A stretch of 64,000 nucleotides of DNA from NCBI GenBank assembly GCA_012295275.1, contig CM022668.1, forward strand, positions 2,852,001 through 2,916,000, given 5' to 3'. The position numbers and the translations under genes are program-made. Shown in pieces: positions 42,365-42,410 of this stretch. Numbering within the stretch: the stretch's first letter is position 1; every line of letters begins with the position of its first letter. The DNA comes from Chrysomallon squamiferum (Eukaryota; Animalia; Mollusca). Below the pieces are notes generated by a model. The model ran no database searches. It was not told the origin of the DNA and saw nothing but the letters and a program-made list of their open reading frames with translations.

Positions 42365-42410
42365 TCTTACCTGAAACGAAAAAAAAATAAAAATAAAATT
42401 AGCATAAATA
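42365..42410 (-). other. Candidate recursive splice site (ratchet point); AG|GT junction between 42371 and 42370
   Basis: Minus strand reads atgCTAATtttatttttatttttttttcgtttCAG|GTAAGAttt: branch-point-like CTAAT, AG-free polypyrimidine tract, CAG acceptor abutting a near-consensus donor. Confidence 0.55.

What the first reader, a model, noticed from the sequence alone, without database searches (positions are those of the whole stretch)
42365..42410. Textbook recursive-splicing ratchet point on the minus strand
Seen: the minus strand has branch-like CTAAT about 28 nt upstream, an uninterrupted AG-free pyrimidine tract, and TTTCAG directly fused to GTAAGA, in a 64-kb window with no convincing coding exon. 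Established: this juxtaposed 3'SS|5'SS (zero-length exon) is the signature of ratchet points in long Drosophila introns (e.g. Ubx) and some long vertebrate neural genes. Inference: the window is inside a giant minus-strand intron that is removed stepwise. I know of no description of recursive splicing in molluscs or lophotrochozoans, which is the suspected lineage.
Basis: partly seen in the sequence, partly recalled or inferred. Interest (0 to 1): 0.75.

Follow-up and report, generated by a model that had tools for sequence, protein, structure and literature searches.

The report
Recursive splice site with leaky exon
Deep in a long intron of what is likely a snail EGF-receptor gene, a fused "intron-end/intron-start" signal is followed by a 66-base exon with stop codons in every frame whose far edge appears spliced in one public RNA set, so the intron is likely cut out in steps as in flies, a mechanism we found no paper describing for molluscs.

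Summary
The motif is real: branch-like CTAAT (A at -29), 42 AG-free bases, TTTCAG|GTAAGA at 42370. It is the window's best AG|GT site, but chance alone gives 0.05-0.17 such sites per window. RNA changes the picture. Two contigs of RNA run X2 cover 42305-42364 and leave the genome exactly before a GC donor (TTT|GCAAGT), the best donor within 160 nt. So the site opens a 66-nt exon, not a zero-length one; it holds a stop in all three phases. The 22 letters beyond the junction are not in the window and, entered in phase 1, read Cys-Thr-Gly-Thr-Ser-Gln, like the start of EGFR/ErbB exon 2. Best reading (0.55): a fly-type ratchet point with a leaky poison RS-exon in a long EGFR-family intron; fly Egfr also has a cryptic RS-exon. 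The recursive step itself, and use of the acceptor, were not seen. This scan noted similar motifs before in octopus, annelid and urchin DNA, mostly without RNA. New member of a known kind; interest 0.48.

The parts
42398..42402 (-). Branch-point-like CTAAT, branch A at 42399 (-29)
   Evidence: sequence; use not shown
42371..42397 (-). T-rich tract and TTTCAG acceptor (AG at 42372-42371), TT at -6/-5, 42-nt AG-free zone
   Evidence: use of the acceptor inferred, junction not seen (skipped 42369-42410 as repeat)
42365..42370 (-). Ratchet donor GTAAGA at the first bases of the exon (score 10.5 in genomic context)
   Evidence: use as donor inferred
42305..42370 (-). 66-nt RS-exon; stop codon in all three entry phases (TAA at 42341-42339 in phase 1); ATGs at 42354 and 42320
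   Evidence: RNA contigs of run X2 cover 42305-42364; translations
42299..42304 (-). Weak GC-type donor TTT|GCAAGT closing the exon (score 2.9, best within 160 nt)
   Evidence: both X2 contigs leave the genome here; ranking; no substitution listed here for the X1 contig
1..42304 (-). Downstream intron segment, at least 42.3 kb if the gene is collinear with the assembly
   Evidence: the 22 loose letters have 0 matches in the window at up to 3 mismatches
63909..63941 (-). Candidate upstream mini-exon (33 nt, phase 1 at both ends; 25-nt and 64-nt versions possible), ending TCAG before a GTAAGT donor, 21.5 kb upstream
   Evidence: best donor score of the strand; open in exit phase 1 and the X1 variant at 63916 is synonymous only in that phase; not seen in RNA
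25437..25470 (-). Second, weaker ratchet-like site TAG|GTAAGT, 16.9 kb further downstream; lacks TT at -6/-5
   Evidence: no RNA laid
42287..42294 (-). Short arm complementary to the ratchet donor (ACTTACCT), just downstream of the GC donor
   Evidence: pairing not in the minimum-energy fold; function untested

Best explanation
The site is likely a recursive-splicing ratchet point with a short poison exon, inside a long intron of what is likely an EGFR/ErbB-family gene. Steps: (1) the strong acceptor and the weak GC donor 66 nt away define a small exon (donor edge seen in RNA; acceptor use inferred); (2) the upstream exon, probably the one ending at 63909, is spliced to 42370, removing about 21.5 kb and rebuilding a strong CAG|GTAAGA donor (inferred); (3) that donor normally beats the GC donor, so the 66 nt leave with the next 42 kb or more of intron, perhaps via a second ratchet at 25442, and the frame into the Cys-x-Gly-Thr exon is kept (inferred); (4) now and then the GC donor wins and the exon stays in, bringing a premature stop that would send the message to nonsense-mediated decay (junction seen, decay inferred).
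For: Fly-type ratchet consensus with TT at -6/-5, found in 196 of 197 fly ratchet points. Two 82-nt contigs of RNA run X2 (depth 3.6 and 2.8; 2 and 0 other letters) lie on 42305-42364, share the same 22 loose letters and are the only 2 records of that run laid on the 781-nt stretch. The break falls before GCAAGT, the best donor from +10 to +160; G[CT]AAGT starts at 20 of 64000 minus-strand positions. A plus-strand reading has no AG at the break. The DNA-like run X1 runs straight through the break. Exon length and stronger ratchet donor match fly cryptic RS-exons (about 50 nt; under 100 nt), and 4 of 8 fly cryptic reporters leak inclusion. Stops in all three phases. Segment lengths 21.5 and 16.9 kb fall in the fly range 2.6-63.6 kb. 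Host gene: loose letters in phase 1 give Cys-Thr-Gly-Thr-Ser-Gln; 5 of the 9 name-picked EGFR sequences shown have Cys-x-Gly-Thr after the signal peptide, 1 has Cys-x-Gly-Glu, 3 lack that end; human exon 2 starts at residue 30, the Val before that Cys; the Lottia EGFR-2 and Helobdella EGFR-5 models begin at this Cys. Fly Egfr carries a cryptic RS-exon.
Against: No read or contig shows an upstream exon joined to 42370, a part-spliced intermediate, a saw-tooth or a lariat; only contigs were served. The motif alone is expected 0.05-0.17 times per window. The RNA support is one run of three, at low depth, with no strand. The gene name rests on 22 letters and a motif that was recognised after the fact; Cys-Thr-Gly-Thr also occurs in other cysteine-rich stretches. 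If the two contigs are a de Bruijn bubble (k=31, recalled), their two differences sit at 42334 and 42313, both third codon positions of the frame opened by the ATG at 42354 (1 in 9 by chance), which favours the start-exon rival. A donor-competition model predicts little use of so weak a GC donor, yet it is seen. The strongest acceptor of the upstream unit (63972) gives a stop in the EGFR-compatible frame, so a weaker acceptor has to be assumed.
Confidence: 0.55

Rival explanations
1. An ordinary poison cassette exon. The 66-nt exon is either included through both its sites or skipped in one long splicing step; its donor-like first bases are not used.
For: The only RNA evidence is inclusion. 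Stops in all phases fit a poison exon. 1.7-4.9% of human exons rebuild a donor at their start without this proving recursion.
Against: A start as close to consensus as GTAAGA, TT at -6/-5 and a mid-intron position in a very long intron are all expected for a ratchet and incidental for a cassette. In both fly reporters tested by mutation, skipping went through the recursive route.
Confidence: 0.2
2. A start-codon exon. The exon carries the translation start (in-frame TAA, then GCAGCC-ATG at 42354, 16 codons open to the end, phase 2) for an alternative N-terminus, fed by a 5'UTR exon or a trans-spliced leader; its donor-like start is suppressed.
For: Open frame from 42354 to the exon end and no stop in the 7 codons of the loose letters in phase 2. 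The two inferred variant positions are third codon positions in this frame. Strong acceptor with weak exon donor is the pattern of EJC-protected RS-exons in mammals.
Against: The loose letters have no stop in any minus-strand phase, so openness does not discriminate. The phase-1 reading matches the EGFR exon-2 start at the exon edge. The variant positions are inferred; the tool did not print them.
Confidence: 0.13
3. No functional site. The motif is a chance AG|GT in a T-rich intron, and the X2 contigs come from a genomic rearrangement, a paralogue or a chimera rather than from splicing.
For: 0.05-0.17 such motifs expected per window. One run, low depth; RNA libraries can hold DNA. No DNA run of the X2 animal was available.
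Against: One contig is identical over 60 nt, the break hits the best local donor, two distinct contigs share it, X1 shows no second copy of this stretch and runs through the break, and the loose letters read like a known exon start.
Confidence: 0.08

Closest known systems
Drosophila intronic ratchet points with cryptic RS-exons (Bx, kuz, Ubx-RP, Egfr, ct, nmo; PMC8605326: parts 1-2 of 6, section 8, passages, primer table rows; Duff et al. preprint 10.1101/006163: passages; PMC6110457: passages and supplement rows)
   Same: Fused strong acceptor and donor, TT at -6/-5, short downstream exon with a weaker donor, stop codons, long host intron, segments of 17-22 kb; fly Egfr itself has a cryptic RS-exon.
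   Different: Mollusc-like genome; the exon's own donor is GC, not GT; inclusion is seen in tissue RNA; the recursive step and conservation are not shown. Whether the fly Egfr ratchet lies in the same intron could not be checked.
Mammalian annotated RS-exons repressed by the exon junction complex (Blazquez et al. 2018, PMC6224609: passages)
   Same: Exon starts with a partial donor; strong acceptor and weak exon donor; can be included.
   Different: Those are mostly constitutive coding exons; this one has a stop in every phase as an internal exon. No lophotrochozoan is among the 7 species listed there.
Vertebrate cryptic RS-exons in long neural genes (Sibley et al. 2015; seen only as described in PMC5126111 part 1 of 3 and PMC6224609 passages)
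   Same: Exon definition, then donor competition; rare inclusion isoforms.
   Different: About ten sites in humans; this would be a protostome case in a receptor tyrosine kinase gene.
EGFR/ErbB exon 2 (PMC4914847 supplement passages; PMC5492017 and PMC10001577 passages)
   Same: Exon edge one base into the codon before Cys-x-Gly-Thr.
   Different: Only 22 letters of the downstream exon were seen; no domain could be tested.

Membership tests
Drosophila-type ratchet point with RS-exon | Juxtaposed strong acceptor and donor (AG|GT) | tested here: met
   top site of 297 AGGT
Drosophila-type ratchet point with RS-exon | TT at -6/-5 of the acceptor | tested here: met
   196 of 197 in flies. The 25442 site fails this.
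Drosophila-type ratchet point with RS-exon | Inside a long intron (over 11 kb) | tested here: met
   splice partner absent from the 42.3 kb downstream; assumes the gene is collinear with the assembly
Drosophila-type ratchet point with RS-exon | Short exon (under 100 nt) closed by a weaker donor | tested here: met
   66 nt; RNA contigs break at the GC donor; scores 10.5 versus 2.9
Drosophila-type ratchet point with RS-exon | Exon disrupts the frame if included | tested here: met
   stop in phases 0, 1 and 2
Drosophila-type ratchet point with RS-exon | Part-spliced intermediate, saw-tooth coverage, lariats | not testable with these tools
   only contigs were served; 42369-42410 was skipped as repeat
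Drosophila-type ratchet point with RS-exon | Mutating the ratchet donor switches to inclusion | not testable with these tools
   bench test
Drosophila-type ratchet point with RS-exon | Conserved across related species | not testable with these tools
   no genome held; no look-alike found
Strict zero-nucleotide exon | No exon sequence ever retained in spliced RNA | tested here: not met
   two RNA contigs hold 60 nt of the exon and break at its donor
EJC-repressed annotated RS-exon (mammals) | Constitutive, frame-keeping internal exon | tested here: not met
   stop in every phase; would hold only if the exon is a start or 5'UTR exon
EGFR/ErbB family (host gene) | Phase-1 exon edge before Cys-x-Gly-Thr | tested here: met
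   22 letters only, motif recognised after the fact
EGFR/ErbB family (host gene) | Receptor L, furin-like and kinase domains | not testable with these tools
   the exons lie outside the window and no genome is held

The most novel reading that the evidence does not exclude
The intron in front of the first ligand-binding exon of EGFR is removed recursively in both snails and flies, an old or repeatedly evolved feature of this gene, and the snail uses a GC-donor poison exon, with a short cis arm that mimics U1 snRNA and can pair with the ratchet donor, as a dial that diverts receptor messages to decay.
Probability: 0.12. Interest if true: 0.72.

Novelty: new member of a known kind. Interest (0 to 1): 0.48.

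Why it matters
Recursive splicing is established in flies and vertebrates. Our searches found no paper on it in molluscs: 0 papers for 'recursive splicing' with 'mollusc' and 2 for 'recursive splic' with 'mollus', both on other subjects by their listing; one search was uninformative, and most subscription papers are not in the library. Earlier notes of this scan list such motifs in octopus and annelid DNA without RNA. Here RNA marks the hidden exon's edge, which gives a named junction, a likely host gene and primer positions, so the question 'do lophotrochozoans splice long introns recursively?' becomes one RT-PCR or one read-mapping job. A GC donor on an RS-exon appeared in none of the passages read (one search listed 3 papers; passages of 1 read for this term), and a shared ratchet in fly and snail EGFR would date the habit to early protostomes or show convergence on the same gene.

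Tried and rejected
No RNA holder was listed for 42110-43150; the three RNA runs came as additions. No RNA contig lay on 63765-64000 in 3 of 3 RNA runs; blanks can come from the tool's filters or from an exon too short to lay, so this is not used either way. The X3 and X4 contigs on 42423-42462 (40 nt, 6 other letters, loose on both sides) are a repeat from elsewhere. The contig end at 42364 is not taken as evidence for the exon start: two equal-length contigs with equal ends look like a bubble between two variants. Metagenome scans for the loose letters and for a degenerate pattern of the exon's peptide found 0 loci. No look-alike stretch in other scanned genomes. A plus-strand junction was rejected (no AG at the break). 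A small transposon with inverted ends was considered for the donor/arm pairs; the repeat finder's listed pairs did not include them and their insides looked unalike by eye. The fold of 42265-42410 is unremarkable (z -0.23). Fly Egfr was not found in the Pai supplements by name, by a recalled gene id or by recalled coordinates, nor in the Duff preprint text; bioRxiv supplements were closed and the 2018 paper that lists fly RS-exons was not in the search results, so the position of the fly Egfr ratchet is open. A search for the length of human EGFR intron 1 found nothing; that it is very long is recalled only. X1 shows 0 of its 7 listed substitutions in the 315 scored bases of 42144-42500 (P 0.01-0.02, boundary chosen after the fact), but the X2 contigs differ at 2 places inside the exon and the motif itself was skipped, so no claim of constraint is made.

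Full report
Observation. The minus strand has CTAAT at 42402-42398 (branch A at -29), 25 bases that are 22 pyrimidines, then CAG and GTAAGA from 42370; the nearest upstream AG is 42 bases away and positions -6/-5 are TT. With approximate matrices set from memory it ranks first among 297 AGGT sites on both strands. Chance expectation is 0.048 per window at the site's two thresholds and 0.17 on the summed score (P=0.16), so the motif alone does not clear chance in a scan of many windows. The window is 29% GC and 48% simple repeat. No genome is held. Earlier scan notes call this genome a snail; I did not test that.

Surroundings. Pfam found nothing at cut-off in 148 of 158 minus-strand segments plus 2 exon-derived ones and nothing in the 60 longest of 151 plus-strand segments. 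Two other minus-strand features stand out: an exon-like unit ending at 63909 with the best donor score of the strand, and a second AG|GTAAGT at 25442 with a weaker acceptor that lacks TT at -6/-5.

RNA. The run search listed 4 runs, none an RNA holder: X1 (kind unknown, 0.63 of the words) and three RNA runs added by study, all as contigs. On 42110-42890, X1 runs unspliced from 42144 to 42890, so it behaves as DNA of another haplotype. Run X2 gave 2 records, both 82 nt, both on 42305-42364, with 2 and 0 other letters, and both with the same 22 loose letters beyond 42305. X3 and X4 gave one unrelated repeat match each. On the minus strand the fit stops exactly before GCAAGT. This TTT|GC donor is the best-scoring GT or GC donor from +10 to +160 of the site (2.9, against 10.5 for the ratchet donor), and G[CT]AAGT starts at only 20 of 64000 minus-strand positions. 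A plus-strand splice would need an AG at the break and there is none. I read this as a spliced 66-nt exon, 42370-42305. Limits: one run of three, depth 3.6 and 2.8, no strand, no DNA from that animal; the upstream junction was not seen, and the tool skipped 42369-42410 as repeat. The end at 42364 is probably a bubble edge and says nothing on the exon start.

What the exon joins. The loose letters have no match in the window at up to 3 mismatches, so the next exon lies beyond position 1 if the gene is collinear: at least 42.3 kb. Translated alone they give Tyr-Val-Leu-Val-Leu-Leu-Arg (phase 0), Cys-Thr-Gly-Thr-Ser-Gln (phase 1) or Met-Tyr-Trp-Tyr-Phe-Ser-Gly (phase 2). I recognised the phase-1 reading from memory as the start of the EGFR/ErbB L1 domain and checked it in the supplement of PMC4914847 (passages only): of 9 sequences picked by name, 5 have Cys-x-Gly-Thr after the signal peptide (Capitella, human ERBB1-4), Lottia EGFR-2 has Cys-x-Gly-Glu and 3 lack that end; motif-picked passages show it in many more animals, and also show Cys-Thr-Gly-Thr in unrelated cysteine-rich stretches. 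Human exons 2-7 encode residues 30-297 (PMC5492017, passage) and residue 30 is the Val before that Cys; the new glycine at the EGFRvIII junction (PMC10001577, passage) implies a split codon. The Lottia EGFR-2 and Helobdella EGFR-5 models start at this Cys, as expected of an exon edge. The coding pattern for hydrophobic-Cys-x-Gly-Thr occurs 0 times in the 128000 positions of the window. The unit ending at 63909 fits: its last base G would complete a Val codon, it is open in exit phase 1 from acceptors at 63941 or 63933, and the one X1 variant listed (63916, of 3 other letters) is synonymous only in that phase. Against: its strongest acceptor (63972) gives a stop in that frame, and it was not seen in RNA. 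I put the EGFR assignment near 0.8.

Mechanism. As an internal exon the 66-mer has a stop in all three phases, so a coding transcript must mostly lose it. In flies, ratchet points carry a cryptic exon of about 50 nt that is recognised, spliced to the upstream exon and then lost because the rebuilt donor beats the exon's own donor (PMC8605326); most fly sites have a second donor within 100 nt (PMC6224609); segments run 2.6-63.6 kb and 196 of 197 sites have TT at -6/-5 (preprint 10.1101/006163). The site meets each of these that I could test; its segments would be 21.5 and 16.9 kb. Fly cryptic exons leak in 4 of 8 reporters, and Egfr is among the fly genes with one. Shown here: the motif, the stops, the RNA break at the GC donor, the absence of the partner from the window. 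Inferred: acceptor use, the upstream partner, use of the rebuilt donor, decay, the gene name.

Rivals. A plain poison cassette (0.20) explains the RNA equally well but leaves the donor-like start as coincidence. A start-codon exon (0.13) has an ATG at 42354 in good context with an open frame, and if the two X2 contigs are a k=31 bubble (recalled) their differences fall at 42334 and 42313, both third positions of that frame (1 in 9 by chance; the tool did not print these letters). An artefact or rearrangement with a chance motif (0.08) has to explain a break at the best local donor followed by a plausible exon start.

A side pattern. CTTACCT, the complement of the donor core, occurs twice on the minus strand, both times within 120 nt downstream of a ratchet-like donor (42293 and 25333); the chance is about 1e-4 before allowing for the after-the-fact choice. 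The 63908 donor also folds into a stem (z -2.07). Duplex tests are weak: shuffle fractions 0.15, 0.08, 0.05 and 0.87 for the 4 sites, combined P 0.056, or 0.009 against window tiles, and the 42370 pairing is not in its minimum-energy fold. It is a lead only.

Novelty. No paper on recursive splicing in molluscs turned up (uninformative; subscription papers and bioRxiv supplements not seen). The scan itself holds 188 notes with these words in at least 20 genomes; of the 8 shown, two are octopus and two annelid cases without RNA, and one urchin case has a hint from RNA-like data. These are unchecked and are not support. This site is a new member of a known kind; what sets it apart is an RNA-marked exon edge at a GC donor and a likely EGFR host shared with flies. 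Interest 0.48.

Noticed in passing
window 42294-42287, 25333-25327 and about 63862-63844 (minus strand): Short arms complementary to the nearby upstream AGGTAAG donor, resembling the 5' end of U1 snRNA (recalled), lie within 120 nt downstream of three of the four minus-strand AGGTAAG sites; could mask donors in cis, or be plus-strand donors. Statistics weak to moderate.
   Followed up: partly
window 25470-25437 (minus strand): Second ratchet-like site TAG|GTAAGT, 16.9 kb downstream of the first; no TT at -6/-5 and no clear exon donor within 160 nt.
   Followed up: partly
window 63972-63909 (minus strand): Exon-like unit with three possible acceptors (64, 33, 25 nt); the 25-nt version itself starts AG|GTGATT; the 64-nt version has a stop in the EGFR-compatible frame.
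   Followed up: partly
window 42219-42276: Three copies of a 23-nt unit, each ending TTTTCAG on the minus strand (acceptor-like), just downstream of the exon; run X1 has one unit fewer. A 22-nt unit at 42423-42466 also differs by one copy.
   Followed up: partly
window 15907 (plus strand): Best plus-strand AG|GT site (TTTTCAG|GTATGC), a useful measure of how often such motifs arise on the other strand.
   Followed up: no
window 42320 (minus strand): A second ATG in the exon is in the phase-1 frame after the stop; it would start a receptor with only a five-codon leader and no signal peptide.
   Followed up: no
window 18192-18548: Tandem repeat with open frames on both strands; looks like a minisatellite, not a gene.
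   Followed up: no
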